Assembly: GCA_043228905.1 (NCBI GenBank)
Contig: JBHGNT010000006.1
Location: forward strand, 5,704,001 to 5,768,000
Length of the DNA: 64,000 nt
Reading direction: 5' to 3'
Source of the DNA: Azolla caroliniana
Lineage: Eukaryota > Plantae > Polypodiophyta
Positions 4,553-46,240 of the stretch are shown piece by piece (the first letter of the stretch is position 1; each line of letters opens with the position of its first letter). The translations under genes and the position numbers were made by a program. The notes below the pieces were generated by a model that worked only from the letters and a program-made list of their open reading frames with translations, had not been told where the DNA came from and did not search any database.

Positions 4553-5841
4553 TCGTCATCGTCTATGTGTGCATGGATGGAGCTCGAAGCTATTTTGCTG
4601 GCCGTGTCCGGTTGTCATATTCTGAGTTCTCTGTTAATTTATAGTTTGTTGCGTCTTTTCTTGTGTTTGGGCATTCTTGCGTTGTTTCTATTCTTCTTAT
4701 GTTTGTCGTTTCCTTAGCCGTGTTCCTATCTTCGTTCTAATCCTGTTATGTGTGCGTACCCGTGTGTGTGAGCCTGTGAGTTCGTCGTTGCTATCTGGCT
4801 TCCGATTTAGAGCAGTATTTGTGTCTGAGCCCGAGAGTTCTCCATTCGGCATCCGGGAATTGATTCGGATTGGGATGTGTGTCAGAAAACCGATCCGGCC
4901 GAGTTATCCAGAAACAGATGTGGATACCCTTCCCTCCAACATTGGCTCTTTGGAACGAGTTATCCAACCCGGTGGTCCTGCCTCGTTCCGACACATTAAC
5001 GCGGAAATCCACGACATCTTTCGTCAACCCGACGTGAATAGGGGCGGCCAAGGAATTCAAAAATGAGGAGAAGTGAATTGGTTGAAGCAATGGCGGTGGC
5101 TATGCACCGCTTGGTTAACGCTTATGAGAGCACTAGTGGCCTCAATAGGGTCATGAAAATAGTAGTCGGCGCGACAGGACGATTCAATGGGAAGGATGTC
5201 ACGAAGTACTTGGAGGCCTTCAAGGCTGAGATGTTGATGAGAGATGTCCTGGAAGATAGATGGTTATCCGTGTTTCCCCAAGTAGTTACACTGAGCATCC
5301 ACGCAGAGGTGCTCGAGATACAGGCCGACCGCCGAAGTTGGCTGGAGTTTGAGGAGCGGCTCCTCGAAAGATACGGTTTCGATGACTTGCTCCGGCTATT
5401 GAAGAGGGAGCTGATGGAGTGGGTCAAGAGACCTGGAAAGGGCAGGAACACATCGACGCTCCTCCAAGAGTTTGAAAGACGATTCACGCGACTCTCGATG
5501 TTGGACCAGATCGTGCTCAACACGAGCAAAGTCCTATTGTTTATCAAGTCGGTCGATCCACTTGATTGAGAAAAGGTAGGTCTACTATTGGAGACGGATG
5601 AAGGGCTCACAACCGATTGATCTGTGGTGAAAAGGGTTTGTAGCTGTTTCAACAAACGACGAGAATGGAACGACTCGGGGTCGTCGACGACCAACCTGGG
5701 TGCCGAGAAGAAGCTGGAGGAACTGATTCCAACATGAACAGAAGAGACAAGACGATGGCTCGAGTCGGGTCGGCTTCGGCCAACGTGGTTGCTGGACCGG
5801 CATGGGGCGCAACCCTAGAGGAGCTGACAAAGATGGTGCGT
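4553..5841 (+). mobile_element. Element B fragment (Trp-PBS Gypsy): 3' part of 5' LTR (ends 5016), degenerate PBS, and gag 5063-5841 interrupted by an insertion at 5842
   Basis: LTR end CCACGACA at 5016, TCGTCAACCCGACGTGAAT at 5021-5039. ORF MRRSELVEAM...GRFNGKDVTKYL is homologous to the G gag. Confidence 0.75.
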
Positions 5842-7167: not shown

Positions 7168-7462
7168 CATGGAGTCCGTGCACTACTCGGCGTCGACAAG
7201 AATCTGGGTAGGCGGAGAGAAGGGCATCGGCCCCAAAATAGACGCTGGATTCTGGCCACTAGTACTTGAGGGACTATTTGGAGTGAGGCTAAGGAAGGAG
7301 GAGGCGGACCACGCGAAGAGGCGGGTCCAAGATGGCACCAGATGGAACGATCCAGTGGAAGAGAAAACCGGCGTCGTAGAAGCCACGTGCTAGAACTACG
7401 AGGTTCTGGTTGAACACAAGCCGGCCAAAGGGGCCGGTCCCTCGAACCGGTATGAGACCTAG

Positions 7463-8279: not shown

Positions 8280-8338
<59 letters not shown>

Positions 8339-8836
8339 GAGCAAGATACAAGTTCGGCTTCGAGCTGGACTAAGGTAGATTAGGTTACAACGTCGATCTG
8401 CTGCCAAGTTGCCGATCGAGGAGTTCACGGGTTCGTCGCGTTGAGCGGGGTCTTGCACAGGAGACAGAGTGGAAGCGAAATCCCCTAGGACATACGAGCT
8501 CTCTACCAGACTAAACCCTTAACAGACACTAAGACTCAACCCACAGGACGAAGAAGAAGAAGACCTAAATGAAACCCTAAAGGAAGTAAGAAGAAGAGAA
8601 AAACTATCATACCTTAGATCTAACGGTATACCCCCCTAACTCAAAATGGGCAACCCCCTTATAAGAGCCCTTTCCTCTCCTTTTATAGTCCAAGGAGAGA
8701 AGGACATTACAATGTGGGATAAATTTCCCCTTGTTATTTTATACACATTTTTGAATGTACATGTGCAGACGGTGCACATTGCCGACTTTTCCTATTCCAC
8801 CATGTTTTCTCACTGTGGTCGGGAATCTTCACGACA
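8048..8836 (-). mobile_element. Complete solo/chimeric LTR of the Trp-PBS lineage, containing a (CA)n tract at 8283-8337
   Basis: TGTCACGG...CTTCACGACA termini, with homology to the A/F/M LTRs (GAGCGGGGTCTTGCACAGGAGA, AAAATGGGCAAC, CCTTTTATAG). Flanks do not match. Confidence 0.75.
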
Positions 8837-10491
8837 ACATCGATTTAATATACGAGCATTCTGGAAGTAGTCAAGATTTTTGTGATCACTGAATACGGTG
8901 ACTTGATGAGAAGATCCCTCTAGAAAATGCCTCCATTGCGTAAAAGAGTCCACTATTGCTAATAGCCCCTTATCATGATTTTCATAGTTGATTTCAGTGG
9001 TGTCAAACTTGCATGAGTGGAAAGCCACAAGATGTAGTTTTTCATCATCGCCTTGTTGTGATAGAATGCTACCCAAGGTGAAATCAGACGCGTCTACCTA
9101 GTCATGGGCTAGGATAGGAGTTGATGTAAATGCCTTCTTAAGACTCTTAAAAGCCATGTCCACTTCTTTAGACCAAAAAAACAATTGCCCCTTATTGGTA
9201 AGATGTGTGAGAGGTAGAATACGTTTTGAGTTATCCTGTATAAACTGGCGGTAGAAATTGGCAAAGCGTAAAAAGCATAACACATCTCGCAAGAACGTGG
9301 AGTCTACCACTCTACCACAGTTTTGACCTTAGCTAGATCCATAGAGATGCCTTCCGAGAAGATGACATAGCCCAGAAATTCCACTTGGTTTCACTCGAAA
9401 CTACATTTTTTCAGTTTTGCATAAAGACCATGTTCTCGAAACCGTTTTAGTACTAACAGTACATGAGAATCATGCTCTTCTTGGGTCTTCGAATAAAATA
9501 GTAGATCATCCAAATAGATGATCAAACAAACATCCAAGAGATCTCAGAATATATCAATTGCCATGTGTTGGAAGATTTTTGGCGCATTAGTGAGGCCGAA
9601 TGGCATGACCGCATACTCGAAGTGCCCATATCTGGTGCGAAATGCGGTCTTCCATTCATCTCCTGGTTGGATTTGTATGAGGTTATATGCTCCTCGTAAG
9701 TTGATCTTTGTGAAGAACCTTGTATCATTGATCCGTTCTAAAAGACTTGAGATAAGGGGGAGTGCATACCTATTCTTGATGGTGACCTTATTCAAGCCAC
9801 GATAATCTACAACGAGACGAAGTGATCCATCCTTTTTCTTGACAAAGAAAATGGGTGCACCGGCTGGAGATTTTGAATGTCGAATGAAACTGTTTGCCAG
9901 ATTCTCCTCTATATAGGCTCGAAGGATTTCTAACTTGGTTGGTGACAAGTTGTAGATCAATTCCCATGGTGGCTCTTTTCCCGGTTGTAAATCAATGGGG
10001 CAATCATACGGTTGGTGGCGAGGAAGCGTATTGGCTGGTACCTTATCGAACACATCGGCATAATGACAATAGTTCTGTGGAAGTTGAACTGCGGATTCCT
10101 CTTTAGTGGTGTTGGAAGGTTTTATTGATACCGTGAAAACGAACATTGCTTCCTTGCGTCCTTCCTCATGCAATTGATGTGGCGAAATGGTTGCAATCCT
10201 ATGAGTAGATCCTCGGGTTTGTCGATACCGGATTTCTCTTGTTCTCCAATCTATGTTGTTGAGAATCAAGCTCAACCTAGTCTAGTCTGTGAACACACCC
10301 TTGAGAATGTGCACTCAAAGGTCAAAAGTCACCACTCTTATCTACACATTAACTATGTGTCATAGAATCATATTCTATGACACATAACTAATGAGTTTTC
10401 ACATTCCCCATGACCCATGAGCTTTGGTAGTTAATGAAGAGAGAGAGTGACTATATAAAGCACTCTCCTCCTACTTTGTAATGTTGTCGAT

Positions 10492-13804: not shown

Positions 13805-15786
13805 TATTCGAGACATGAACTAATGTAAGCATTAGATAAGGATAGAATATAGATCTAGATAGAAAGGAGAGAGAGAAAGAAGGGTGTCGATCCACCCGAC
13901 CACCCCCGAGCGAAGGGATCGAGACGGACTCGAGCCTCGATCGGCATCCCATACCACCGTCGTGGCATCGAGTTGTACCTGGTGTTGGCGCGCTCGCTAC
14001 AAGAGTTGACCTACCACAAGACAGAGTCTCGACGTAGTCAACCAGATGATGAAATGAGGGTAGCTAGGCCTCTTATTTATAGCGATACGCAAGGCCCCCA
14101 GGCAAGTTCACACTTGGCCTAATGGGTTGTCTGAATCCCGAGGATTAAAAGTAATCCTCCCCTTCTTTACACTCTCGTTTAACCCTCACACTTATCCACA
14201 TGTATAGAATACTACGGTAAATTCTGACCACGGGATATTAGATGGTCATGCCCATAACATACTCCCCCTCTTTAAAACATTGCACTCTTGCAATGGAAAG
14301 TTAGGGAAGTTAGTTTTGAGAGTATTTTCGCATTCCCATGTGGCATCTTTTATTGATTTATCCATCCATTTTATTTTAAATTCTCAGATTTCTTTAGTAC
14401 GTAATTTTTTTGTTTTAACATCGAGAATTCTTTCTGGTACATGTGGTTTAGAAGATAAATCTTCAGAAGTAACCAGAGTTTCAGTTGTAACTGTATTGTT
14501 GCTAGAACCTAGAAGTTCTTTTAGACGACTCACATGAAAAACTGGATGAATTCCAACACCATCGAGAAGAGTGAGACGATAGACTGATGACCCAATGCGT
14601 TTGAGGACTGTAAAAGGTCCACAAAACCGTGGGGCTAACTTAGCGCACTTACCCGTTGTCGCGTTGCTATGCGCGTGCGTGGAGAAGGGCGGGACCACAG
14701 GGGTCTTGGACTAAGGAGTAGAGGAGAAGGAGGAGAGCGGAAAGGCAACGGACCCTCTTACACATGCACTGACACGGGAGCACATAGGAATCACAGTCCA
14801 ACAACACAGCAAAACGAGACGACCAGAAGTCCGAGTATATGAACACGTATGTATATCAATATAAGTATAAATATCGAGACGGTTACAACTAACAGGACGG
14901 CAAGGCGAACACCGAAGCCTGTTCACTCACGCAAACAGAAGAGCGAGATGGAGATTCTGCCGGAAGCACACGGGCGTTCCACAGGACAGAATCAGCCTCC
15001 CGAGAGCCTGCGCAAAGAAGGCTATGGAGAACGACAGAGAAGAAGAGCTCGGTCCCAGTCCGACAGCACTTCGTTCCCTCTAGCGTGCGATCCCTTTCTC
15101 TCCCCGTCTCCCTCTCTTTTATAGCTCAAGGAGGGAGGCCGTCTCACCCGTTTACATCACATTAACTCTCTGTCCTTTCGGACAGAGATACTCCTCGATT
15201 TCCCTTACAGAATATTGCTACCTAGGATTTAACTTTTGTGCCTACCCATCCACCGTACAGCAAGGGACGTGCCCACGTGAAAGGGCCGGTTCACACACAC
15301 TATACACAGTTTGCGCCTGAAGGGGTTTGACGCTATCAAATCTTTCGCCTCTCGGCCACAACCGAGACAACACGGATCAATGCAGCAGAAAATGGGAAAA
15401 AGACACAGAGAGACGAATACACAGGGTATAACGTGGAAAACCCTAAACGGGAAAAACCACGGGAGTGCACGACTCCAACTATCACTATACACTGGAATAT
15501 ACAATGGCGAGCTGCAAGGCGACGACCTTGAGCTCGCTGTCCTCGCCACAGGCGGCGGTATTAAACAGAGGCGTCGACCTCTTCGTTTCTATCTCTCTCT
15601 CTCGGCTGCTCTCACTTCTCATGAAAAATAAGCAACAACATTATAACTGTTTGCCCTAAGTCATATTTATACATATATGACTTTCGGGATATTTACAAAT
15701 ATAGCCTCAAGGGCTCTTAGCAAACATATTCACAAATATGTCCCTGCATCCGGATCTCTCTCCGGGTACATTCGTCATCCGGCTCC

Positions 15787-15980
15787 GTAGCCGGGGTCTT
15801 CATCATCCGGATCCGTATCCGGGTACTCTTCATCCGGCTTCATGCCGGGTACTCTTCATCATCCGGATCCGTATCCGGGTACTCTTCATCCAGCTTCATG
15901 CCGGGTACTCTTCATCATCCGGATCCGTATCCGGGTACTCTTCATCCGGCTTCATGCCGGGTACTCTTCATCATCCGGTT
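15787..15980. repeat. 56-bp tandem repeat in the U3 of H/J LTRs (also ~20635-20828, ~35490-35683, ~40348-40597)
   Basis: Unit CCGGGTACTCTTCATCATCCGGATCCGTATCCGGGTACTCTTCATCCGGCTTCATG; ~3 copies, but 4 in the J 3' LTR. Confidence 0.9.
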
Positions 15981-16060
15981 CCGTAACCGCAACCGGGCTT
16001 GCCGTCATTCATCTCCGGACATCCCATCCGGAGGGACCGTAATCCCAACAAACTCCCCCT

Positions 16061-19000
16061 TCACTTCGGCATGGGATGTCTCTCCAATCCGATCCTCTTC
16101 CGGCATGCTTCCAGCTTGTCGGGTGTGAGCACCTTGGTCAGCATATCCGACCCGTTCTCGTCAGTGTGGATCTTCGTCAGCACGAACTCCTCGTCTTCTA
16201 TCCTCTCCCGGATCCAGTGGTATCTACGCTGGATGTGTTTCGTCCGGGAATGGTAGGCCGCGTTCTTCGCAAGGTGGATGGCACTCTGACTGTCGCAGTA
16301 GAGTCGGTACTCCTCCTGTTGGATACCGAGCTCTCTAATGAAGTCCTTCATCCATATTATTTCCTTGCCGGCTTCAACAGCTGCCATGTACTCCGCCTCC
16401 GTGGTTGACAACGCAACCGTCTTCTGCAGCCTCGACTGCCACGAAACGGCTCCCCCTGCATAGGTCATCACATACCCTGATGTGGACCGGCTGGTATCTG
16501 CATCAGCCGACATATCCGAATCGGTGAAGCCGTCGAGTTGGGGCTTACCGGAGCCGAATCGGAGGCACACGTTTGCCGTGCCCTTCAGGTATCGGAGTAT
16601 CCACTTGACCGCGTTCCAATGCTCTTTGCCGGGATTGCTCATGTACCGGCTCACCACTCCGACTGCATATCCTATGTCCGGTCTCGTACACACCATGGCG
16701 TACATCAAGCTCCCGACGGCTGAGGCATACGACACTTTCATCATATCCTCCTTTTCAGCCTTTGTCTTGGGACTTTGCTTGCTGGACAGCTTGCAGTTTG
16801 CCGGGAGGGTCGATCCGACCGGTCTTGCTTCCGACATGTTGAACCGGTGAAGCACCTTCGTTACGTACTTCTCTTGTGACAGCCACAACTGCTTCTTCTT
16901 CCGGTCTCGGATGATGTGCATCCCTAGTATTTGCCTCGCCGGACCCAGGTCCTTCATTGAGAAGGTTCGGTGAAGTGCTTTCTTCAGCATCCGTATCTTG
17001 ACCTGGTCCCGTCCGACGATCAACATGTCGTCCACGTATAGGAGGAGTATTAGCGAGTCTCCTCCTTCAAACTTCTTCACAAACACGCAGTGATCGGACT
17101 GCGTTTTGTTGTACCCTTCGTCGGTCATGAAGGAGTCGAACTTCCGGTACCATTGCCGGGGAGCCTGCTTCAATCCGTAAAGGCTCTTCTTCAACCGGCA
17201 TACCAGGTGCTCCTTCCCTTTCTTCTCGAATCCTTCCGGTTGCTGCATGTAGATCTCTTCCTCGAGGTCACCGTGAAGGAATGCCGTCTTCACGTCCATC
17301 TGTTCTACCTCGAGGTCCATGCTTGCCGCTATGCTCAGCACCGTCCGGATGGAGGTCATCTTCACTACCGGGGCAAATATCTTGTCGAAGTCGACGCCCT
17401 TCTTCTGCTGGAACCCCTTCACCACGATCCTGGCTTTGTATCTCGGGGAGTTTCCGGCATCTCCCGGTTTCAGCTTGAACACCCACTTGTTTCGAAGTGC
17501 CCGCTTTCCTTTCGGCAACTCCACAAGTTCATATGTGTGGTTCTCATGCAGGGAATCCATCTCGTCCTGCATGGCACTTAACCACCTGCGGCTCTGGGTG
17601 TCGTGCTTTGCTTCTTCAAAGCTCTCCGGCTCCCCCTCGTCGGTTAGCAGCACGTGCTCTGGTTCCGGAAATCTCCGGGGGGCCCTTCTCTCTCTTAGAG
17701 GATATCTCCGTTCGGGAGCTTCGGTAACCGGTTCTTCCGATTCTTCTACATCCGAAATCATTTCGGGATCGGGGCCGGTTCCGGTATCATTTTCATCTTC
17801 TTCGGCCGGTTCTGTTTCTTCACCGTCTTCGGCCGGATCCTCGAGTGCTAACCGGTCCCTTGCCGGTCGGGACTGCTCCTCGTAGAGTTGATTCTCACCG
17901 GTCGACTTGGAGCTCTTCATCTTCTTCTCCGACTCCCAGTCGGCGAGTGTCTTGTCCTCCATGAAGATGATATCTCGACTCCTGAATATCTTTTTGTCGA
18001 CCGGGTCCCATACTCGGTAGCCGAACTCGTCGTCACCGTAACCGAGGAATATGCATGGCCGGGTCTTTGGATCTAACTTTCCTCTCCGGTCCTTTGCCAC
18101 ATGAACGTATGTGAGACACCCGAACACCTTCAGATGCCGGTAGGACACTTCCTTACCGGTCCACACTTTCTGCGGCGTGTCTCCGTCCAAAGGTACTGAG
18201 GGTGATCTATTTATCACATACGTCGCCGTCGACATTGCCTCAGCCCAGAATCCCTTGGGTAGTTTCGCATGCGCCAGCATACCCCGGACCCTCTCCATTA
18301 TGGTCCGGTTCATCCTCTCGGCCAGCCCGTTCAGTTCCGGCGTCTTCGGCACAGTAAACTCGAGTCGGATTCCCTTCGAGCGACAGTACTCCTGGAACTG
18401 CCCCCGGTATTCCCCTCCGTTATCCGCTCGTATCGCTTTCAGCTTCTTGCCGGATTCCCTTTCCACTCTCGCGTGGAGTTCTTTGAAGACGCCCAACACT
18501 TGGTCCTTTGTCTTCAACGGCGCCGTCCACAGCTTCCGGCTGTGGTCATCAATGAATGTCACGAAGTACTGGGCTCCGCCATGTGACTTCGTTTCTACTT
18601 GACACACGTCAGTGTGCACCAGCTCCAATGGTGCACTACGTCTCGTCGGTGGCCTTGAGTGGAAGGAGGTCCGGTTTTGCTTACCGGCTAGGCAGTCGGT
18701 GCACTTCTCCAGGTGCACATGCTTCACTGGAATAAGGTTGTCTTCTGCAAGCCTCTTCATCCCCTTCTCACTCATGTGGCACAGTCTCTTGTGCCACAGC
18801 TCACCGGCAGTGTCGGCTGCCACGTTCGGCTCCTCCGGACATAGCCGGGAATTCATCAGGTATAGTGTGTTGGCTTTCCGAGCCCGAGCCACTATCAGGC
18901 TCCCCTTGCTGAACTTCATTACGCCGTTCCGGATGCTACCCGTGTAGCCTTCATCATCTAGCCTCCCGGCCGAAATCAGGTTCAATCGGACCTCCGGAAC

Positions 19001-20134
19001 GTGTCGGACATCCTTCAGCAGCATTTTGCATCCGGTTGATGTCATCAGCCACACGTCTCCTATGCCGGCAATCCGGCACGTACCTTCATTTCCCATCCGG
19101 ACACAGCCATGCTCACCGGCTGTGTAGGATGAGAAGTATCTTCTCTCCGGGGTCAGGTGGAACGATGCTCCGGAATCGACCACCCAGGTCGTCTCATCGC
19201 CGGCAACGTTTAGTTCACCTTCTTCGGTGATGAGCATGATTTCTTCCTCACTTGCCGCGAGTGCCGTTGTTCCTTTCCGGTCCTGCCCTCGCCGATCCGA
19301 ACCTCTCCGGTCCGTGCCTCCCCGGTATGCACCGTTTCTATCCGGTGACTTCTTCGAATCGGTGTCGACGGCTCCGTTGTCTTTTCGGTAATGCCGACAA
19401 TTCTTTCGGAAGTGCCCCGGCTTCCCACAGTGGAAGCATGTGGGTCTTCCTCTTGACTGCGACCGGGTCCCCGACTTCTCCCGTCTTTGTGGACTCCGGT
19501 TCCATTGTCTTCCCCGTTCCGATTCGGTAAGCAGCGCCTTCGAGTCGGAGGCCGGTTCTTTATCTCTCCGACGCGCTTCTTCATTTAGAATACTTGTCTT
19601 TACCGTTTGTAGAGACAAGTTATCTTCGGTGCAGGAGGTGCTGAGAGTCACCACCAAGTTCTCCCAGCTTTCCGGCAATGTACACATCAAGATGATGGCT
19701 TGCATTGCATCCTCCAACGGGAACTTGATCGCCGCAAGCTGGTTCACGAATCCCATGAACGTGCTTACGTGTTCCACCATACTCTCGCCGTCCCGGTACT
19801 TGAGGTTCACTATCTTCCTCATCAGGGAGGTCCGGTTCAACGCATTCTTCCTCTCGTAGAGGCCCGACAGCTTCCGCCACATCTCGTATGCGTTGGTGTC
19901 GTTCGCCACATGCTGTAGAACGCTCACGTCGACGTATTGCCGAATGGTAGCAACGGCTTTCCGGTTCAGAAGCCTCCATTCCGACTCAAGTACCCCCTTC
20001 GGTATTTCCGACCTGTCAATCGGTTCGTACAGGTCCCGAACAATCAGAAGATCCTCCATCTTGATCTTCCAGTCGGCGTAGTTCTGCGCATTCAGCACCA
20101 TCATCCCCGGCTGCCCGCTGCTGCCGCCTTCCAT
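16061..20134 (-). CDS. Copia gag-pol polyprotein (1357 aa from the ATG after the PBS): gag, CCHC knuckle, protease, integrase, RT, RNase H
   Basis: CFHCGKPGHFRKNC, WVVDSGAS, LWHKRLCH/VHTDVC, LLYVDDML, TDSD...EAEY...CDSQSA; no stops. Confidence 0.95.
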   Translation of the reverse strand: MEGGSSGQPGMMVLNAQNYADWKIKMEDLLIVRDLYEPIDRSEIPKGVLESEWRLLNRKAVATIRQYVDVSVLQHVANDTNAYEMWRKLSGLYERKNALNRTSLMRKIVNLKYRDGESMVEHVSTFMGFVNQLAAIKFPLEDAMQAIILMCTLPESWENLVVTLSTSCTEDNLSLQTVKTSILNEEARRRDKEPASDSKALLTESERGRQWNRSPQRREKSGTRSQSRGRPTCFHCGKPGHFRKNCRHYRKDNGAVDTDSKKSPDRNGAYRGGTDRRGSDRRGQDRKGTTALAASEEEIMLITEEGELNVAGDETTWVVDSGASFHLTPERRYFSSYTAGEHGCVRMGNEGTCRIAGIGDVWLMTSTGCKMLLKDVRHVPEVRLNLISAGRLDDEGYTGSIRNGVMKFSKGSLIVARARKANTLYLMNSRLCPEEPNVAADTAGELWHKRLCHMSEKGMKRLAEDNLIPVKHVHLEKCTDCLAGKQNRTSFHSRPPTRRSAPLELVHTDVCQVETKSHGGAQYFVTFIDDHSRKLWTAPLKTKDQVLGVFKELHARVERESGKKLKAIRADNGGEYRGQFQEYCRSKGIRLEFTVPKTPELNGLAERMNRTIMERVRGMLAHAKLPKGFWAEAMSTATYVINRSPSVPLDGDTPQKVWTGKEVSYRHLKVFGCLTYVHVAKDRRGKLDPKTRPCIFLGYGDDEFGYRVWDPVDKKIFRSRDIIFMEDKTLADWESEKKMKSSKSTGENQLYEEQSRPARDRLALEDPAEDGEETEPAEEDENDTGTGPDPEMISDVEESEEPVTEAPERRYPLRERRAPRRFPEPEHVLLTDEGEPESFEEAKHDTQSRRWLSAMQDEMDSLHENHTYELVELPKGKRALRNKWVFKLKPGDAGNSPRYKARIVVKGFQQKKGVDFDKIFAPVVKMTSIRTVLSIAASMDLEVEQMDVKTAFLHGDLEEEIYMQQPEGFEKKGKEHLVCRLKKSLYGLKQAPRQWYRKFDSFMTDEGYNKTQSDHCVFVKKFEGGDSLILLLYVDDMLIVGRDQVKIRMLKKALHRTFSMKDLGPARQILGMHIIRDRKKKQLWLSQEKYVTKVLHRFNMSEARPVGSTLPANCKLSSKQSPKTKAEKEDMMKVSYASAVGSLMYAMVCTRPDIGYAVGVVSRYMSNPGKEHWNAVKWILRYLKGTANVCLRFGSGKPQLDGFTDSDMSADADTSRSTSGYVMTYAGGAVSWQSRLQKTVALSTTEAEYMAAVEAGKEIIWMKDFIRELGIQQEEYRLYCDSQSAIHLAKNAAYHSRTKHIQRRYHWIRERIEDEEFVLTKIHTDENGSDMLTKVLTPDKLEACRKRIGLERHPMPK

Positions 20135-20930
20135 TTTCTGCACTGCCGTCGCTCTGATACCAGTTTGAAGGGGTTTGACGCTATCAAATCTTTCGCCTCT
20201 CGGCCACAACCGAGACAACACGGATCAATGCAGCAGAAAATGGGAAAAAGACACAGAGAGACGAATACACAGGGTATAACGTGGAAAACCCTAAACGGGA
20301 AAAACCACGGGAGTGCACGACTCCAACTATCACTATACACTGGAATATACAATGGCGAGCTGCAAGGCGACGACCTTGAGCTCGCTGTCCTCGCCACAGG
20401 CGGCGGTATTACACAGAGGCGTCGACCTCTTCGTTTCTATCTCTCTCTCTCGGCTGCTCTCACTTCTCATGAAAAATAAGCAACAACATTATAACTGTTT
20501 GCCCTAAGTCATATTTATACATATATGACTTTCGGGATATTTACAAATATAGCCTCAAGGGCTCTTAGCAAACATATTCACAAATATGTCCCTGCATCCG
20601 GATCTCTCTCCGGGTACATTCGTCATCCGGCTCCGTAGCCGGGGTCTTCATCATCCGGATCCGTATCCGGGTACTCTTCAGCCGGCTTCATGCCAGGTAC
20701 TCTTCATCATCCGGATCCGTATCCGGGTACTCTTCATCCGGCTTCATGCCGGGTACTCTTCATCATCCGGATCCGTATCCGGGTACTCTTCATCCGGCTT
20801 CATGCCAGGTACTCTTCATCATCCGGTTCCGTAACCGCAACCGGGCTTGCCGTCATTCATCTCCGGACATCCCATCCGGAGGGACCGTAATCCCAACAGC
20901 GCCTGGGGACGGTTTTCTTCACGACACCGT

Positions 20931-23454
20931 AGACAATGTCTTAGAATTGTGAGGTACACGTAAAAATACATTTTGTCCAAGGTTGAATACACGAGGTTGC
21001 CTATGATGGTTGGCATAAAAACGCGCTCTATCTTGAGCTATTTTTATATTATCTCATGAAATATGCAACATATCTTGCATATCCCGAAGAAAGTTTTGCG
21101 TACTTCGCAACTCATCATGACGTATATTAACATCAATCGGGGCTCGTGGCTGAAAACCATACATCAACATAAAAGGACTATATCCCGTCGACGTATGCTT
21201 GGAGCTGTTATAAGCAAGCTCCAAAATTGGGAGATAACGTTCCCATTTTGTTGGTTTTGCACCAACATATGCTCGAAGCATATCCTCAATAATATGATTT
21301 ACTTGTTCTGTTTGTCCATCGAATTGAGGATGATACGTGGAGCTCATGCTTAACGTAGTTTCTAACTTCTTAAAGACTTGCGTCCAGAAGTCACTAGTAA
21401 ATTTTGGATCTCGATCACTCATGATATCCATCGATAACCCATAAAAATGAAATAACTCGTCAACGAATTGGTAAGCCAATTCAAGAGTTGTTACCGTGGT
21501 TTTAGTAGCAATAAATCTGGCCATTTTAGTTAGTCGATCAACCACAACCCATATGGCATCATGACCTTTTTGGGTGCGAGGAAGGCTAGCAATAAAATCC
21601 ATGGATATACTTTCCCACTTATTGTTGGGAATGTCCAAGGGATGTAAAAGTCATGCGGCTTTAAGTCGCTTGACTTTGTTAACCTGATATTGTTGACATT
21701 TAGTCACATAGTTATGTATGTCAGGACGCATCTTAGGCCAATAGAATTGAGTGGAGATGAGAACGAGTGTGCGATGTATTCTAGGGTGCCCTGCTGAGGG
21801 TGCATCATGGCATTAAAAAAGAATCCTCTTTTTGACCTCAGGAAAATCTGGAACACGAACCTTCCCATTATGATAGAGCAGACTGTTAGCAATGTGGAAG
21901 TATTCCTTCGAGGATGTAGTGGTGTCTGTTCCAAACTCAACTCTTGCCCAATATTTTGTGAAATAATTGTCATTAGGATACTCCCCTCGAAGGTGATCTT
22001 AAAGATATGATGTTATTTCAGTGAAGCTAAGCATGTTAACTTCACGGATGCGACTTAGTGCATTAGCGATAGTATTGATGGAACCTTTACGATATCGTAT
22101 GGAAAAATCAAATTCTTGGATGAGATCAGCCCATCGTGCCTTACGACCTTTCAGGTCTTGTTGGTAACAAAAATATTTCAAGGACTCGTGGTCCATAGTT
22201 ACCACAAAGCGATTTCCATAAAGATAATGGTGTCATGTTTTGAGCGCATGTATAACTGCAAATAATTCCTTTTCTTGAACGGTATACCGACATTGAGGAA
22301 AATCAAGTTTCTTACTCTTTAATGTTATTGGTTTACCATCTTGATATAAGACAACACCTATAGCATAATCACTTGCATTAGTTTCAACCTCAAAAGGTTT
22401 TGAAGGATCGGGTAAAAGAAGTGAAGGAGCCTTGCAAACTAGGTCCTTGAGTTCGTTAAAGGTGAGGTCTAGTGTAGCATTCCAGACAATAGGTTTTGTA
22501 GACTTACACGTTTGACCTTTTAGAAGATCAGTAAACGGCGTCGTCAATTGGGAGTAATTACAAAGGGATTTTCGCAAAAACCTGACAAAACCATGGAATG
22601 ATCGAACTTCTTGAATATTCCGAAGAGTGGGCCAAAGCTTGATTTTCTAAATACGAGAAGGATCAATTTCAACTACTCGTTCGGTTATGAGATGTCCAAG
22701 ATAAGTAATTGATTTCTTGAAGAACTCACATTTTGAGATCTTCGCATAAAACTGTTTGTCACGCAATGTTTGTAAAACAAAGCGGACATGTTTAGCATGT
22801 TCTTGTAATGTACGACTATAAACTAAAATATCATCCAAGAAAATAACGACAAATTTTCCAAGTTGTTCTTGGAAAATGTCATTCATTTCTTGTTGAAATG
22901 TAGCCAGAGCATTGGTCAAACCAAAAGGCATAACCAAAAACTCATAATGGCCATAGCGCGTACGAAATGTCGTTTTAGGAACACCATCCTCACTTATACG
23001 AATTTGATGGTAGCTATTACGGAGATCAAGTTTCGTAAAATACCGAGCTCCCTAGAGACGATCAATTAGATCGTTAGCCCGGGGCAATGGATACGAATTC
23101 TTGATCGTCACTTTATTCAAGCGTTGGTAATTAATACACATACGTCATGTGCCCTCTTTCTTTTTAACCAAGAGAACTGGTGCACCCCATGGAGATTTAC
23201 TATAATGTATATAACCCATTCGTAAATAGTCCTTGAGTTGCTTAGATACCTCATCCTCTTCGGATGGACTTAAGCGATGAGGTATACTTATTGGTGCAAC
23301 GCCAAGTACAATATCTATACGATGGTCTATATTATGTTTAGGAGGTAAACCATCTAGTAGTTCACTCGGAAAAACATCATGAAAATCATTTAAGATTTCA
23401 TCAAGTTGTTGTTCAAAATATGTTAATTGAACCGAGACATTATCGATATTGTAA
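20931..23454 (-). pseudogene. Element D pol (RT-RNase H-integrase), degenerate
   Basis: VMPFGLTNA...IFLDDILVYS, VETNASDYAIG, WESISMDF...VVVDRLTKMA, with multiple stops and frameshifts. Confidence 0.9.
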
Positions 23455-23478
23455 ACGTTGTCGCGTTGTTACGCGCGT

Positions 23479-26400
23479 TGTCGTGAAGAAAACCGTCCGC
23501 GAGTGGAATCGGTGCGCCGGAGCATAGGAACCGGCTCTTCATGCACGTACGCCTTACGTTGTACATAAGGGAGAATTAGGGACATAGAAGATCCTTGGTA
23601 GGTAGATTCGGTAGGTAGGAAGTTAATAGGAAACGGCTCCTTCCTTGCCTATAAAAGGAGGGAGACGAGGAGGGGGAAGGGGATCGCGAAGAGTCGAGGA
23701 CGAAGTGCTGTCGGGCTGTTGGTCGAAGGCTTCTCTCTCTTCCATACTCTCCATAGCTTCTTTCTGTGCAGGTTTCGTGAGGCTCGCGCTGCTCTGAGGA
23801 ATGCCCGAGTGCTTCCGGCAGCACCTCCAACCTACTCCTTCCTTTCTGCGCGTTTGCGAACAGGCATCGGCATTTGTTCGCCGGCCTGTTCGACTGTAAC
23901 AGACTTCGTGTTTTGTTGTTTGTCTCTGTTAATATATACTTACATACCGTTGTGCCTCTCTGTGTTGGCTTCCACGCTCGCGTCTTCGTGTCGAAGGGCC
24001 GTGTCCCTGTGGATCTACGCTCGCACGTAGTGGGTCTCTTCTCCTTTCTCTCTTGCTCTTCAGTACAGGACCCCCGAGGTCCCGCCTCATTCCACGCATC
24101 CACGAGGAATACCTCGACATCTTGGTGAACCCGACGTGAAGGAGGCGGCAGAAGAGCAGAAGATGAAAGGGTCGGATCTTGCGGAGGCCATGGCTTCGGC
24201 CGTGGATCGGATACTGAGCGCACGCGAGGGCTCCGGCGCCCTCGACAGAGCCATTGAGGCGGTCGTTGGTACGATCGGCCGGTTCAACGGAAAGGATGCC
24301 ACGAAGTATTTGGTGTCCTACGGGGCAGAACTGCTGATGCGGGACATTCCGGAAGAGAGGCGTCTTGCCGGGTTCCCTCGAGTGGCGATGCCGAGAATCC
24401 ATGCGGAGGTGCTCGAGGTGCGGGCGGAGAGCCGTACCTGGGAGGAGTTCGAAGGTCCACTCCTAGAAAAATACGGGTTAGACGACGCGCTCCGGCTTTC
24501 GAAATGGGACTTCATGGAGTGGGTGGAGTCCCCCGGCAAGGGAAGAAACGCGTCGACACTCCTCCGAGAGTACGAGGAACGCTTTGCGCGCCTTTCGGCG
24601 CTTGACCGAACCGTTCTGGATACGAGCCGGGTCCTACTGTTCGTCAAGTCAGTGGACGAGCGGGACCGGGATCAAGTCGGCTCCTTGCTGGAAACCAAAG
24701 ACGGGCTGACGATATTGATATTCACGGTACCGCATGTACCGTGGAATCTCAAGCCGATTCCGGTACCAAGAGCTCACATCCCGGAGTTGATGGAGCTACT
24801 GAGGCAGAAAGTCGATATGGGTATTCTCGAACCGTCGAGCGCGCCATACTCGAACCGATGGTTTACCGTACCAAAGAAAAACGGAGCATTGCGCTTCATT
24901 CAGGACTTGCAGCCGGTCAACAGAGTGACCATTCGGAACGCAGGAATCGGACCGACCATAGACGAGTTCGCGGAGGCCTTCGCCGGAAGGTCGATTTACT
25001 CGGTCGGTGATCTGTACTCGGGGTACGACCAGTTCCAGCTAGCCGTGGAGAGCAGAGACATTACGACGATGCGAACTCCCCTCGGCCTAGTGCGAATGTG
25101 TACCCTGCCACAAGGAGGGACCAACTCGGTGGCCCACATGGTGAATGAAATGAACAAGGTACTGAGGGATTGCATCCCGGACATCACCATGCCATTTCTG
25201 GACGACATCCCGATAAAGGGGTGCTCGGTGGAAGAGAAGGACGGGACAGTCAGGCCCGACGGATGCCGGCGATTCGTGGCAACACACATCGGCGACTGCG
25301 AGAAGGTGCTACAAAGGCTAGAGGATGCGAGGCTCACCTTCTCCGGGGAGAAATCGGCCTTCGGGCAATCAGAAATCCTGGTGGTCGGACACCTGTGTGG
25401 ACCGTATGGCCGGAAGCCGTCTCCGGCAAAGGTAGAAGCAATCTCCGCGATGAAGACCGACTGTAGCTCGGTTACGGAAGTTCGGAGGTTCCTGGGGGCA
25501 TGCGCATTCTACCACATATGGATCCCGCATTACGCCCACGTTGCGGAGCCGCTATACGGGTTGCTGAAGAAAGGGCGAAAATTCGAGTGGCGAGACTAGC
25601 ACACGGAGTCGGTCCGGAAGCTGAAGGAAGCTCTTGCGGCAGCACCGGCGCTCCGGAAGGCTGTCTACGAGAAGGGTACCCCGGTATACATAACGGTGGA
25701 TACGAGTCCGACCGGGATCGGATGGGTCGTCAACCAAGAAGACGGGGGCGGCATTCGGTTCCCGATCCGATTCGGCGCGAAGGTCCTCAGTGAGCGACAG
25801 CGAGGGTTCGCCCATGTTAAACGCGAACTCTGGGGTATCGTTTCGGCAGTAAAGGCCGACAAAGACTACCTGATCGGGACGGAAGTGATTATCGAGACGG
25901 ATTGCCTGCCAATTCTCGGCATGGTTTCCGGATGCGCGACACCGGACCTTGCGATGCTCAGGTGGATAGCGTACATTAAGTCCCTGGATCCGGAAATACA
26001 GCACATTTCCGGAAAGGACAACGCCATGGCCGACATGCTTTCGAGGGCGACGTTTGATGACGAGGGCGGCATGGTTTCGGAGGACGAAGAAGTCGGTGTG
26101 GACTTCTTCGAGGCGGCGTACGTGACTACCGATGGGAGGAGCACTCTGGCACTTAACGACTTCGACGAGAGCAAGTACGACGGCGAGTGGCTCCAGATCA
26201 GTGGATTTTTGAGGACAATGACGCCGGATGCGTCATGGACAAAGGACGAGGCCAACCGGATCTGGAAGAAAGCTTACTGATTCTTTCTCCGGGATGGATA
26301 CTTATGGAAGCACCCGAAGAAGAGGAACGGCGTCCCGCTCCGGGTGGTGGCGATGAAGGAAGATCAGGAGGAGTTATTGACGGCTTACCACGACAACCCT

Positions 26401-28245
26401 TGGGCTGGTCACCGTGGAACGTGGGCCACGTTCGAGAAGATAAAGGGGAAGTACTAGTGGCCGGGACTGTACCGGGATGTGCATCGGTTCGTAACAACTT
26501 GCGAGAGCTGTCAGATGCACTCCATTGTCCGACATCGGGACGGGCTTCACCCTACGTACCCTCCGACCATCCACTTCAAATGGATGGTAGATCTGGTGAC
26601 GATGCCGATGGGAGTAGGACAGATGCGGTATCTGGTCCTGGCTCGGGAAGATCTGACGAACCAGGTAGAAGGCCGGGCCCTTCAGAACAAAACGACCGCG
26701 GCCGTATGTCGGTTCCTGATTGAGGACGTGATATGCCGGTACGGGTGCGTCGGGAAGATTGTGGCTGATCGCGGGGAGTTGGACGCCGAAGAGGCCAAGG
26801 AGTTGTTCGACCGGTTAGGAGTCAAGCTCTCGCTTACCACTGCGTACAATCCGGAGGCGAATGGGAAGGTGGAGCACGGACACGGACCGATCGTCAAGGC
26901 GTTAGTTCGGGCATGCGGAGGACAAGTCGGGAACTGGCCGTGGCTGCTGCCTTACGCGTTGTGGGCGGACCGAACTACGCACAGTTCGGTAACCGGATTC
27001 ATGCCGGCAGAGCTCATGTTTGGGCAGAAGCCGGTCATGCCGATGGAACGTACGATATCCTCGTGGGCAACCGTGGACTGGAGAGACGAGATGAGCCGGG
27101 AGGAACTATTGGCGGCGCGTATACGGCAGCTCGAGCGAAGACCGGAGGACGTGGAGCAAGCTGTGGAAAAGCTTCGGGTGGCAAGGAAGAGGAACAAAGC
27201 CCGGTTCAACCGGACGCACCGGATCCGACTGAAGAAGATCGAGGAAGGCGACTGGGTGCTAGTCCACGACAGCAGCCTCAACAACCAGCACCGAGCGACA
27301 CGGAAGTTCACAAGAAGGTGGTTCGGGCCTTACGTGGTACAAAGCACCAACGACAACGGGACGTACCATCTGGCGGAACTCGACGGTACGAGAATGGCGA
27401 TACCGGTAGTTGGGAAGCGGATCAAAGCGTTCAAGAAGCGTCACGATGATGAGCCGGATCCGGATAACCTGGACCGGGACGACGAACGATCTGAAACCGA
27501 AGAAGAACCGATGGGCGGGGAATAAAGGCTGGACCGGTTTTCTCCGTCCCAACTCAATTTGGCGCATGCCGGTGGATGCACGGTTAGGTGGGGGCGGATG
27601 TCGTGAAGAAAACCGTCCGCGAGCGGAATCGGTACGCAGGAGCATAGGAACCGGCTCTTCATGCACGTACGCCTTACGTTGTACATAAGGGAGAATTAGG
27701 GACATAGAAGATCCTAGGTAGGTAGATTCGGTAGGTAGGAAGTTAATAGGAAACGGCTCCTTCCTTGCCTATAAAAGGAGGGAGACGAGGAGGGGGAAGG
27801 GGATCGCGGAGAGTCGAGGACGAAGTGCTGTCGGGCTGTCGGTCGAAGGCTTCTCTCTCTTCCATACTCTCCATAGCTTCTTTCTGTGCAGGTTTCGTGA
27901 GGCTCGCGCTGCTCTAAGGAATGCCTGAGTGCTTCCGGCAGCACCTCCAACCTACTCCTTCCTTTCTGCGCGTTTGCGAACAAGCATCGGCATTTGTTCG
28001 CCGGTCTGTTCGGCTGTAACAGACTTCGTGTTTTGTTGTTTTTCTCTGTTAATATATACTTACATACCGTTGTGCCTCTCTGTGTTGGCTTCCACGCTCG
28101 CGTCTTCGTGTCGAAGGGTCGTGTCCCTGTGGATCTACGCTCGCACGTAGTGGGTCTCTTCTCCTTTCTCTCTTGCTCTTCGGTACAGGACCCCCGAGGT
28201 CCCGCCTCATTCCACGCATCCGTGCGTGCGTGGAATACCTCGACA
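23479..28245 (+). mobile_element. Element G: Trp-PBS non-chromovirus Gypsy (Phygy/Selgy-like), internally deleted; LTRs 23479-24119 and 27599-28245
   Basis: Direct LTRs TGTCGTG...CCTCGACA, TSD GCGT (23475-78 / 28246-49), PBS 24123-24140, PPT AGGTGGGGGCGGA. Confidence 0.92.
24163..27525 (+). pseudogene. G gag(N-terminus)-RT-RH-INT single-frame polyprotein lacking protease, with 3 in-frame stops
   Basis: ORFs 24136, 25696 and 26479 share one frame; stops at 25597, 26278 and 26455. RT core PFLDDIPIKG, integrase H-H-C-C and GPY. Confidence 0.88.
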
Positions 28246-29008
28246 GCGTGCGTGGAGAAAGGCGGGACCACGGGGGTCTTGGACTATTGAGCGATGGAGC
28301 GTAGGAAGTCGTGCTTCACTGTTTCCGGGGCATCCCAGAAACACACCGGAAGCAACTGAAGGGAGAGAGAGAGATTAACACTAACTCACGCACACACACA
28401 CACGCACACACACACAGCCACACACTCGTACACACAGCTCAACTCGACTCGCGCCTTATGTACAAAAAACACAGGAGAGGGTAAGCACCCGACGCCAACA
28501 ACGACGCGAATATACACAGACAAACGTAAACGTATATGTATGTATATATATGAAGAATACATTCCCGGCTTCGAGCCGGACCAAGATAGCTTACAACAGT
28601 CGTCTGATGTCAAGCCGCCGTCGGGGAGCTCTCGGGCTCGTCGCGCCGAGCGGGGTCTTGCACAGGAGATGAGCTGCAACAAACCCTAAGCGAACACGAA
28701 GGAGAAGAAGAAAAAGAAGAAGAAGCTAACTCTAATCCTAACGGTATACCCTCTAATGCAAAATGGGCAACGCTTTCACAAAGGCTGTTCCCTTCCTTTT
28801 ATAGAACAAGGAAAGGGATGCTTTACAATGTGGGACAAATCCCGCCTTACATGGGATCGTCTGCCCTGACTTGACTACTCTTCGGCGCCATAAAGGCGCC
28901 CTTGATATTCACACTAAATGTACATGGGTGCGTACACACGCTGCACCCCGCCGATGTAGCCAATGTTTCCCGGTTTCCGCTTGTGGACGAAAATCTTCAC
29001 GACAACGT

Positions 29009-30014
29009 GAATGTCCGAATCAAGTACACAATAAAATAGAGTAGAACAAGACAACTCGGATATTGATGGACACGAGGAACAATCAAGAGGGATTGTTTTT
29101 TGACACATTGAATAAAATGAGTACAATCATTCAGTACAAAAGTTATTGAATGATGAACCCAATCAATAAATAAAGAAGAGTTTTTATTATAAAACCAGGG
29201 ATAACCCAATATTACATCGGTGGTACAAAGATTCATTACATGGAAGTCTACTTCCTCTATATAAGTATCAATAGAAATTCCTAATGAATGAATCGCCCCG
29301 TTGATGTATTGTACTCTTCCATCAGCCAAGTGCACCGTGTAGGTGTGATCAATTACGGTGGGTTGGATTCCCCATATCTTAACCAAACGAGCCATTAACA
29401 AAACAAGTTATTAACCAATTGTCCCCTTCTAGACCTGATTTTTGGATTTGGGTTCTAGCATGGTGAACATAGTCTTCTAGCGAGGAAAACTTCCTACTAG
29501 AGAGGTTCATTAAAGCTTGTGTTGCCTCGGTTCGAGAGGGAGGTTGCAGAAATTGGCCCTTGAAAACTGTGACAAAATCTGTCCAGGTATCGGGCAATTT
29601 CCCCAAAGTACGGAGCCCACGCCACCAGGCGGTGGCCTTACCCCCTAGTTCTCGACCGACATATGCAATCTTTGTACTATCTGGCGTGGGATAGAGCTCA
29701 AAATGAGACTCCCATCGGCCCAACCACGTGCAAATTGCTTCTTTGGTTCTTTCCTTTTTTTCTCTCGTAAATGGCTTAACGACAAATGATGGTTCACCTT
29801 GTCGCTCATCAGGTCTATTAGTCTCACGTTGTAAACTAATGACATGTGCCTCGAGAGCACTTTGAGATTGCCAAAGTTCGGTCATCTGTTGAGCGGTGAA
29901 ACTAAAGTATTGGGTTATTTGCGAAAAATACATCTCAGTGGACATTTGTCCAGGAGGATTTCCTTGAGTTCCTTCCGCTTGAGCGGATGACATCGGGTCG
30001 TTATTTTGAGCCAT
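29009..30014 (-). pseudogene. Element D gag and partial protease region
   Basis: WLGRWESHF...LGGKATAWW...TWTDFVTVFKGQF retrotrans-gag signature, followed by DVILGYPW. Confidence 0.8.
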
Positions 30015-32132
30015 TAAATGATTATTTCTAGAAAAGAAATAGGATAAGGTCAGAGAGATAGTCATAACATCATGTCGTGATGTAAACATATCATGGGTGA
30101 ACATTAATTCATATCATTATCTCACGTCAATACCCCTCTAGACGTATGAGATGACGTTCAAGATCAGGTTACTATGGTAACACAAAGGTGTTTTAAAAAC
30201 CATGGGGGTGACAAATGAATGTCTTTCCCTGATCTCTATATCGATTTTATATGGCAGCTCCCCAAGGCTCAACCATGTATGCTCACGTCATGAATAGTTT
30301 ATACACGAAAAAAATGTTAACAATAAACTATGTTTCGGTGCCCACATATGTGGTTTCGGCTCTTTAAGTCCTATTACGCGGACCCCAAAGTGCACTTAAA
30401 CCTCAAGTCTAAACATGTGTTATAGTCATATGTATCAACGATGTGGTATGGTCTTGGTCATATTTGAACTTGAGACCTCGAGAACAAATGCATTAAACAG
30501 TTGAGCCAACCAAGCAGGTTGCTATTCTTGAATGTTTAATGTTTCATGCGTATAAGAGATGTGTGAGGCATTTGCCCATTACATATGTTCTTTTAAAAGA
30601 AACATATATGTCAAGAGTCCTTATGTCCCCCTCAATTACTACAACTATGTTGGTACATTACCTACCCTCAAGTCTCGTAATTATGATGGCATACGCCAAA
30701 GTGCAACCTAATGGTCAAGCCAAATGAGCCCTCTTTTCGTAGTAGGCCCACGTGGCCCATCACATGGTCATGTCATTACGAATGCCTCTCGTAAGAATGA
30801 TCTCATGGTGGCATCGTATCCATGTAATGAGGGAGGGATGTTGGATATGTATGGCATAGGAGCGACCTCACATGAAGTGGGTCAAGCCCTACGTACTCAA
30901 CATCATTATGGCTATAGGCGTTTCTTTATGTAACGAAATATCGAAGTCACCAACGGGGATTTCAACAATAAAAAATTGTTGAAAAAAGGGATGGTGACAA
31001 CGCTATTCTCATAAATTCCTCGAAAAGGAAAACATACGATTTAAAATCACATAATAACTTATATACACATATGTATATTATCACATATATACGATCAACT
31101 ACGTATACATGTGACCACATATGCCTATATTAAAGAAATCCTTATATTTAATAGCCAAAAATGACGTAATCGAGGCATATACCTCTACGCACACTAGACA
31201 TCCAAAAATAAGGGTTAATCATAATACGCAGTTGAGGTATTGACCTCTTACGCATACGAGACCAAACACATATCATTTACAACGAATCGAGGTATTGACC
31301 TCATACGCAAATGTAGCATATGTTTGTGAATGTAATACGCAATTAAGGTATTAACCTCGTGTGCATACGACACTCATCACATATTCAATATACGTCAAAT
31401 GAGGTATTGACCTCATACACATATGTAAACGTTTTATACAACCAATGAATTACCACTACAACATCATTGAATTAATGAAAAAAATCTACATATTAACTAT
31501 ACACATGATTAGATGAGAGAGCAAAAAATAGACAAAAAAACAAGAAAGATTACCGAAGTTCCTTTGTTGATCCTTGTCTGCATGAAGGCCGACCGCACGT
31601 AGATCGATCGCCATCAATCAAAAACACAAAAGACAACAAAAGATACATTAGAAAATGAGCTTTGATACCAACTATTAGAGACATGAACTAATGTAAGCAT
31701 TAGATAAGGATAGAATATAGATCTAGATAGAAAGGAGAGAGAGAAAGAAGGGTGTTGATCCACCCGACCACCCCCATGCGAAGGGATCGAGACGGACTCG
31801 AGCCTCGATCGACGTCCCATACCACCGTCGTGGCGTCGAGTCGTACCTGGTGTTGGCGCGCTCGCGACAAGAGTTGACCTACCACAAGGCAGAGTCTCGA
31901 CGTAGTCAACCAAATGATGAAATGAGGGTAGCTAGGCCTCTTGTTTATAGCGATACGCAAGGCCCCCAGGCAAGTTCACACTTGGCCTAATGGGTTGTCT
32001 CAATCCCGAGGATTAAAAGTAATCCTCCCCTTCTTTACACTCTCGTTTAACCCTCACACTTATCCACGTGTATAGAATACTACGGTAAATTGTGACCACG
32101 GGATATTAGATGGTCATGCCCGTAACACCCAG

Positions 32133-45014: not shown

Positions 45015-46240
45015 ATGTTGTCGTGAAGAATTTCGGCCAGAGGCGGAAACCGGGAAATATTGGCTACATCGGCGGGGTGCAGCATGTGCGCTCACCCTTG
45101 TACATTTAGTGTGAATAACGAAGGCGCCTTTATGGTGTCGAAGAGTAGTCAAGTCGGGACAGAGAATCCCATGTAAGTCAGGATTTATCCCACATTGTAA
45201 CGCATCTCCCTCCTTGTTCTATAAAAGGAAGGGAGCGCCTCTTGTGAAGGGGTTACCCATTTTTGAGTCATAAGGGTATACCATTTTGTGCTTCGTTTCT
45301 ATGGTTAGTGACATTCTTTCTTTTTCTCCTCTGCTCCTTCTCCTTCTCGAGAACTCAAGTGGCAGCTATGGCAGGAAAGCTATTAGGTTAACTCTTCTTC
45401 TTCTGTGCGTAGCCGGCTCGCGGCCGGGGTTGTATCTCTCCCTGTTGTAGGTTGCCTCTACTCGGCCTCCTATGCAAGACCCCGCTCGGCGCGACGAGCC
45501 CGAGAGCTCCCTGACGGCAGCTTGGCGGCAAACTGCCGTTGCGACCTAGCCTACCTCAGTCCGAGTCGGAGTAGGAGTTGTAACTCACTCTTGTAATCAT
45601 ATATATATATACACAGGGTTGTGCATATTCGTGTCTCTGTCGGTGTCAGATGCTTTCCCTTCCCTGTGTTTCCTGTACATAAGAGGTTTGTGTTGTGTCG
45701 GTGTTGCGCGCGTGTTCTCTCCCTCTCTTCCTCTCTCACGTTTGGTAGCCACTAGTACGCGTCCGGAATCACTCCGGTTTGCGCCACCACCAGTGCAGCC
45801 GGGACCGGAGAGAAGTCGGCTTCCTACGCTCCGTCACTCCCTAGTCCAAGACCCCCGTGGTCCCGTCCCTTCTATACGCACGCGCGTAACATCATAACAT
45901 CTTTGGTGAACCCGACGTGAAGGGCGGCAAGGGAGCATGGAGTCGGAAGATGATGACCTCGCGGAGATGGTGGCCGAAGTGGTGTTGGAGTCTGCACGAG
46001 TGGTGATGAGGCGAGAAGCAGCACAACAAGCGGTTGAGCGAGTGGTCGAAAGAGTCGGTCGTTTCAACGGGGACAAGGTCCCATTCTACTTGGAAGCCTA
46101 CAACGCGGAAATGGAAGTGTGTGGCGTAGACGAGGCGTTGAGGCTGGAGTTCTTCTGTCGGGTCGTAGCTGTCCGGATGCATGCGGAAGTAAAGGAGCTC
46201 CTTGCGGCTCATAGTTCGTGGGAGGCCTTCGAAGAGGCAC

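What the first reader, a model, noticed from the sequence alone, without database searches (positions are those of the whole stretch)
14653..29008. tRNA-Trp-primed Gypsy lineage inserts with 4-bp TSDs centred on CpG
Seen: all three insertions of this lineage with both flanks visible have 4-bp, not 5-bp, TSDs with CG in the middle. They are E CCGT (14653/20927), F ACGT (23455/29005) and G GCGT (23475/28246). Single visible flanks agree: TCGT (4553), GCGT (5838), ACGG (8044). Others are one-step CpG-deamination products: ACAT (8837), ATGT (45015), CCAG (42082). CTAG (7459) would need two steps and CATG (7168) does not fit. E and F landed in the AT-rich coding region of D. Copia and chromovirus insertions in the window have ordinary 5-bp TSDs (GCGCC, TTTAA, GGCAC, TCGAT, CCCGG). 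Inference: this chromodomain-less integrase selects N-CG-N sites, possibly methylated CpG. That would be a DNA-level route into TE-rich heterochromatin and would explain why family members keep nesting in each other's CG-rich LTRs.
Basis: partly seen in the sequence, partly recalled or inferred. Interest (0 to 1): 0.85.

Follow-up and report, generated by a model that had tools for sequence, protein, structure and literature searches.

The report
Known CpG-targeting Phygy-type retrotransposon lineage
These plant jumping genes do insert at four-base sites with CG in the middle, but the same habit, primer type and layout were published in 2019 for the moss Phygy lineage, so this is likely a further member of a known group, and whether it reads methylated CG is untested.

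Summary
E, F and G carry exact 4-bp duplications (CCGT, ACGT, GCGT) and no 5-bp ones. It also generalises: 14 of 18 LTR flanks in related public contigs have a central CG (0.65 expected), and the plurality flank before the LTR start ends in CGT in 4 of 4 sequencing runs. Two others trace to CG sites through uninterrupted homologues.

It is not new. Neumann et al. 2019 list Phygy as 4-bp TSD (100%), NCGN, tRNA-Trp primer (81%), 7.7-10 kb, no extra domain. Full-length relatives of G meet each feature I could test. Placement against Phygy reference sequences could not be run.

Most likely the integrase itself selects CG: a 4-bp stagger needs a sharp central kink, and CG dominates far beyond what flexibility alone gives, so a base contact is inferred. 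CpG is 4.6-fold denser in the repeat cluster than on the gene side, which would favour nesting without any methyl reading. Nothing here supports or excludes methyl-CpG recognition.

The parts
14653..14656 (.). E left TSD copy, CCGT
14657..20926 (-). E: solo LTR of the lineage (about 0.68 kb), split by a Copia element at 15318-20898 with 5-bp TSD GCGCC; lies in the integrase region of host D
20927..20930 (.). E right TSD copy, CCGT
23455..23458 (.). F left TSD copy, ACGT
   Evidence: empty site in other D copies
23459..29004 (-). F: solo LTR of the lineage (about 0.77 kb), split by G about 20 bp from its 3' end; lies between the protease and RT regions of D
23475..23478 (.). G left TSD copy, GCGT
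23479..24119 (+). G 5' LTR; 96.6% identical to the 3' LTR, 16 substitutions
24123..24139 (+). G primer-binding site; complement of the CCA-ended plant small RNA listed as miR894; assignment to tRNA-Trp is recalled
24120..27598 (+). G internal region: gag start joined near 24710 to RT-RNase H-integrase across a deletion of about 2.3 kb; in-frame stops in pol; no chromodomain or archaeal-type RNase H match; G-rich tract before the 3' LTR
27599..28245 (+). G 3' LTR
28246..28249 (.). G right TSD copy, GCGT
29005..29008 (.). F right TSD copy, ACGT
13805..32127 (-). Host D: Gypsy element of another clade; flanks CCCGG/CCCAG; CpG 0.023-0.034; chromodomain not tested
4553..4556 (.). Single true flank TCGT (3' LTR of element A)
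5838..5841 (.). Single true flank GCGT (LTR 5842, truncated near 7151)
7459..7462 (.). Single true flank CTAG; CCGG in homologue L008
8044..8047 (.). Single true flank ACGG (LTR 8048-8836)
8837..8840 (.). Single true flank ACAT; ATGT in the homologous copy at 48396
45015..45018 (.). Single true flank ATGT; homologue at 54799 also ATGT (ambiguous)

Best explanation
E, F and G are Gypsy retrotransposon insertions with 4-bp duplications centred on CG, likely members of the published Phygy lineage, whose integrase likely picks the CG step itself, with no sign here that methylation is needed. Shown: the duplications, the CG bias in independent flanks, the shared primer site, and the lack of a chromodomain or archaeal-type RNase H match. 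Inferred: the paired integrase cuts with a 4-bp stagger and kinks the target at its central step, as foamy virus integrase does, which favours pyrimidine-purine steps; a base contact, possibly from the conserved loop of the SH3-like C-terminal domain, would narrow this to CG. Because CpG is denser in repeats, above all in this lineage's own DNA, insertions would pile up there passively; old target CGs then decay by deamination.
For: 3 of 3 paired TSDs are 4 bp with central CG. 14 of 18 flanks in public contigs have central CG, 0.65 expected, P about 3e-18 on local background or 2e-11 at a flat 10%; 2 more are one deamination away. Plurality flanks end ACGT, GCGT, ACGT, ACGT over 8, 9, 12 and 15 contigs. 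Phygy is listed as 4 bp (100%) NCGN, tRNA-Trp 81%, 7656-9968 bp, no extra domain. Relatives L006 and L027 work out at about 7.7 and 8.8 kb (coordinates), and their pol has no CHD or aRH match. Retroviruses with 4-bp TSDs favour a central YR step and disfavour T first and A last; here T is first in 2 of 20 and A last in 0 of 20 intact CG sites (counted). Best solved relatives of G's integrase are Ty3 and foamy virus integrases. CpG density: 0.012 gene side, 0.02-0.045 other Gypsy, 0.06-0.10 this lineage.
Against: No Phygy reference sequence was reachable, so clade membership is untested. Phygy was defined as specific to Physcomitrium, and the named homologues here are from Riccia, Calypogeia and Adiantum, none from Physcomitrium among the 240 rows shown. 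2 of 18 contig flanks (TCCA, TTCT) and possibly 45015 do not fit. Several contigs are high-coverage collapses that may favour common flanks. 3 of 5 control TSDs also contain CG. The contact residue is a guess from conservation. Methylation independence is assumed, not shown.
Confidence: 0.7

Rival explanations
1. The integrase prefers 5-methyl-CpG, giving a DNA-mark route into silenced chromatin that replaces the chromodomain.
For: CG dominance (14 of 18) is far above the mean 63% rise in YR steps seen in retroviruses. Several target CGs show deamination, including F's empty site in other copies. All 9 window junctions are inside other elements.
Against: Deamination shows methylation at some time, not at insertion. 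The window is a repeat cluster, so targets in repeats are expected. No methyl-binding domain matches the integrase. CpG density alone gives a 4.6-fold bias.
Confidence: 0.15
2. A host factor tethers the integration complex to methylated or repeat chromatin, and NCGN is only the local fine choice.
For: Phygy-into-Tcn1 was the commonest class among 26 repeated nested pairs, most from Physcomitrium (PMC6911290 passage). Phygy-class domains are enriched at predicted centromeres of a liverwort (PMC12885004 passage).
Against: The integrase ends about 25 mostly acidic residues after the SH3-like domain, with no known tether. Passive CpG density and selection explain repeat enrichment.
Confidence: 0.1
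3. There is only a general preference for flexible pyrimidine-purine steps, and the CG excess comes from small numbers or ascertainment.
For: CA or TG centres occur in 2 of 9 window junctions and 2 of 18 contig flanks; 3 of 5 control TSDs contain CG.
Against: CA+TG is 2.6 times as common as CG in the background (0.13 vs 0.05) yet far rarer at the sites. The only TA centre is CCGG in its homologue. Phygy shows NCGN over 186 elements.
Confidence: 0.05

Closest known systems
Phygy, non-chromovirus Ty3/Gypsy clade (Neumann et al. 2019, PMC6317226; passages, section 9, supplements MOESM5 and MOESM6 read; MOESM1 and MOESM3 too large to read)
   Same: 4-bp TSD, NCGN preference, tRNA-Trp primer site, 7.7-8.8 kb full-length relatives, polyprotein filling the internal region, no chromodomain or aRH.
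   Different: Described from Physcomitrium only. Here the host is another land plant, likely a fern (unverified), with several LTR families. G is an internally deleted 4.8-kb copy.
TatI (same paper, supplement MOESM5)
   Same: 4-bp TSD and tRNA-Trp primer site.
   Different: TatI carries an aRH domain between protease and RT; none matched here. No NCGN preference is listed for it.
Selgy (same paper)
   Same: Non-chromovirus, 4-bp TSD, overlapping gag and pol frames.
   Different: tRNA-Ala primer, 4.4-6.7 kb, no NCGN listed.
Foamy virus and other 4-bp-TSD retroviral intasomes (PMC4422553; abstract, sections 6 and 13 read)
   Same: 4-bp stagger, central pyrimidine-purine step, T disfavoured first and A last; integrase homologous (E 3e-11).
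   Different: Their bias is weak and spread over YR steps; here it is concentrated on CG.
Drosophila errantiviruses, ZAM subgroup (PMC5408687; passages read)
   Same: Sequence-specific Gypsy-type integration at a CG-rich four-base target (CGCG).
   Different: CGCG has GC, not CG, at its centre; different clade and host.

Membership tests
Phygy | 4-bp TSD | tested here: met
   3 of 3 paired insertions; empty sites
Phygy | NCGN target preference | tested here: met
   6 of 9 window junctions intact CG; 14 of 18 contig flanks; 4 of 4 run pluralities
Phygy | tRNA-Trp primer-binding site | tested here: met
   Same site after 5' LTRs in window and loci; complement of CCA-ended miR894; its identity as the tRNA-Trp 3' end is recalled, and the search to confirm it found nothing
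Phygy | Length 7.7-10 kb, polyprotein spanning the internal part, no extra ORF | tested here: met
   L006 about 7.7 kb, L027 about 8.8 kb; gag-protease and pol frames fill the interior. G itself is deleted.
Phygy | No chromodomain, no aRH | tested here: met
   Pfam scan of 10 proteins or parts to E 0.1; alignment
Phygy | RT-RH-INT clade with the Physcomitrium reference elements | not testable with these tools
   Reference FASTA too large. The tree has no labelled Phygy row; it only separates the lineage from D and H.
Phygy | Host range as first described (Physcomitrium) | tested here: inconclusive
   No genome held; host-gene search empty; homologues in liverworts and a fern
TatI | aRH between protease and RT | tested here: not met
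   The 240 residues before RT match no Pfam family in L001 or L006
Selgy | tRNA-Ala primer site, 4.4-6.7 kb | tested here: not met
   Primer site and size differ
Chromovirus | Chromodomain after integrase | tested here: not met

The most novel reading that the evidence does not exclude
A Gypsy lineage spread across mosses, liverworts and ferns has an integrase that reads methylated CpG directly in its target site, a domain-free, DNA-level way of homing to silenced chromatin that I did not find described for any retrotransposon.
Probability: 0.15. Interest if true: 0.65.

Novelty: new member of a known kind. Interest (0 to 1): 0.2.

Why it matters
The target rule is in print, so the finding mainly widens it from one moss to another land plant, likely a fern, and to several families. 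In my library search NCGN with retrotransposon returned only the 2019 survey and one unrelated paper, so the mechanism seems unstudied. A near-exclusive CG choice is unusual among plant integrases and gives a clean system for asking whether a transposon can read DNA methylation. Annotators should allow 4-bp TSDs and CG decay when calling these elements.

Tried and rejected
No whole genome is held, so the genome-wide TSD census was not possible. A viral-contig scan for the LTR start found nothing. Rfam found nothing in the window. Cluster look-ups gave no organism names. The atlas search gave only generic integrase clusters. The host-gene protein search was empty. The Physcomitrium RLG2 transcript is cut at 400 letters in the supplement and could not be linked to Phygy. 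Earlier-finding searches by words and by sequence were empty. No natural empty site for E was found in the window or the 80 loci. Rejected: 5-bp TSDs with shifted termini (TG...CA ends are fixed by the primer-site and purine-tract junctions); CATG and CCAG as lineage flanks; TatI and Selgy. Rows dropped before the 14-of-18 count: junctions facing the primer site or purine tract; L075 (contig ends four bases on, TCTT, probably the primer side; counting it gives 14 of 19); L012:535 (repeat inside the LTR, TCGA); motif hits inside coding or unrelated sequence (e.g. L003:452, L033:1322, L068:1740). L055 and L074 have imperfect termini and were kept; without them the count is 12 of 16.

Full report
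Observation. E (14657-20926) and F (23459-29004) are minus-strand solo LTRs, E split by a Copia element and F by G. G (23479-28245) has two LTRs at 96.6% identity. Testing duplication lengths 2-10, each has only a 4-bp match: CCGT, ACGT, GCGT. Natural empty sites agree. Other copies of host D run from ACGT directly into F's right flank in run X11 and read ATGT there in X4, and the uninterrupted LTR ends of E and A have GCGT once at G's site. No empty site for E was found. Three CG centres have a chance of about 8e-5 on local CpG frequencies, but the pattern was noticed after the fact.

Single flanks. Two of the eight are not flanks of this lineage. LTR 5842 matches L027's LTR only to about 7151, some 270 bp short of the family's end, and the TGACA before CATG aligns to gag coding sequence. 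The LTR ending at 42081 is homologous to the LTR at 46241-46676, which belongs to the other Gypsy clade with a 5-bp TSD. Of the remaining six, three are intact CG. CTAG is CCGG in L008. ACAT is ATGT in the homologous copy, and both are one deamination from ACGT. ATGT at 45015 is ATGT in its homologue too and stays ambiguous. So 6 of 9 junctions are intact CG (P 5e-5 at the richest local CpG level). The 5-bp controls GCGCC, TTTAA, GGCAC and TCGAT are exact and CCCGG is imperfect; three of the five contain a CG, which weakens the contrast somewhat.

Independent test. No genome is held. I fetched the best 80 of 137 metagenome stretches encoding integrase relatives and located LTR termini by motif. 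Of 18 outer flanks, 14 have a central CG, 2 are one deamination away and 2 do not fit; 0.65 were expected, P about 3e-18, or 2e-11 at a flat 10%. Dropped rows are listed under Tried and rejected. Some contigs are collapsed repeats. Laying 4 of the 20 listed runs on the LTR start gave loose ends from 8, 9, 12 and 15 contigs, heterogeneous overall (agreement 0.46-0.49) but ending ACGT, GCGT, ACGT, ACGT. Only contigs that leave the reference exactly at the junction are counted, and the runs may share loci.

What it is. G has a primer site shared across the lineage. It is complementary to a CCA-ended small RNA, miR894 (PMC5846777 passages); that this is the tRNA-Trp end is recalled. G has lost about 2.3 kb including protease, and its pol has stops. 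Whole relatives are about 7.7 and 8.8 kb with overlapping gag-protease and pol frames and no chromodomain or aRH match. Named homologues are from Riccia, Calypogeia and Adiantum. An RT tree of 24 rows separates the lineage from D and H with full support, but has no labelled reference. Earlier scan notes call the host a likely fern; I could not verify this.

What is known. Neumann et al. 2019 state that Phygy elements have an insertion preference for NCGN and tabulate 186 elements: 4 bp (100%), tRNA-Trp 81%, 7656-9968 bp, no extra domain. TatI shares the 4-bp TSD and tRNA-Trp but has aRH; Selgy uses tRNA-Ala. Jedlicka et al. 2019 report GC-rich centres in 4-bp TSDs and Phygy nested in Tcn1 (passages). 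Five Phygy features are met here. The tree placement could not be run because the reference files were too large; those files also hold the per-element TSDs. I therefore call this likely Phygy or its close sister.

Mechanism. G's integrase is closest in solved structures to Ty3 and foamy virus integrases. Intasomes with a 4-bp stagger unstack the central step and favour pyrimidine-purine steps, by 63% on average, and disfavour T first and A last (PMC4422553). The same edges hold here (T first 2 of 20, A last 0 of 20). But CG takes most sites although CA+TG is 2.6 times commoner, so bending alone is not enough and a base contact is inferred. Foamy virus uses Ala188 and Arg329 for base contacts (PMC4005685, search listing only); conserved candidates exist here and are untested. 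CpG density rises from 0.012 on the gene side to 0.057 in the cluster and 0.06-0.10 in the lineage's own DNA, enough to bias insertions toward repeats with no methyl reading. Deaminated flanks show methylation at some time, not at insertion. I put methyl-CpG reading at 0.15 and host tethering at 0.10.

Verdict. The feature is real and well supported, and its target rule is already published. What is added is a wider host range, cleaned-up exceptions and numbers. A search for NCGN with retrotransposon found only the 2019 survey and one unrelated paper; broader searches listed no mechanistic study of it, within a library that lacks most subscription journals. Interest 0.2.

Noticed in passing
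window 8837-42081: Five-level nest: a Gypsy element (5' LTR 41578-42081) holds a Copia (10257-34293), which holds D, which holds F, which holds G.
   Followed up: partly
window and loci flanks: Read in element orientation, intact CG sites end in T in 15 of 20 but start with A in only 7 of 20, an asymmetry a symmetric intasome would not predict.
   Followed up: no
window 1-4552 and 45019-52608: Two copies of a lineage family with a gag start; copy A continues with about 2.5 kb of purine-rich, internally repeated sequence and its listed ORFs gave no Pfam match, so it may be non-autonomous.
   Followed up: partly
window 15318-20898 and 35420-41079: Two Copia copies 96.4% identical in opposite orientation, with 56-bp tandem repeats in their LTRs.
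   Followed up: no
window 8048-8836: Complete solo LTR with flanks in two different hosts, likely from recombination between neighbouring insertions that deleted the DNA between.
   Followed up: partly
L001:1105-1824, L006:3848-4567: About 240 residues of pol before RT, conserved in the lineage, match no Pfam family; gag carries DUF4100.
   Followed up: partly
window 26458-27522: The integrase core has ADRGEL where foamy virus has SDQGAA, putting Glu at the position aligned to the target-contacting Ala188; the SH3-like loop keeps QH in 12 of 15 aligned relatives.
   Followed up: partly
window 56539-56778: First exon of a host gene resembling a plant acyl-activating enzyme (recalled; the search was empty), in a CpG-poor region.
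   Followed up: partly
window 24123-24139: The primer site is the complement of the abundant plant small RNA miR894, which PMC5846777 maps to Gypsy repeats; it could silence this lineage.
   Followed up: no
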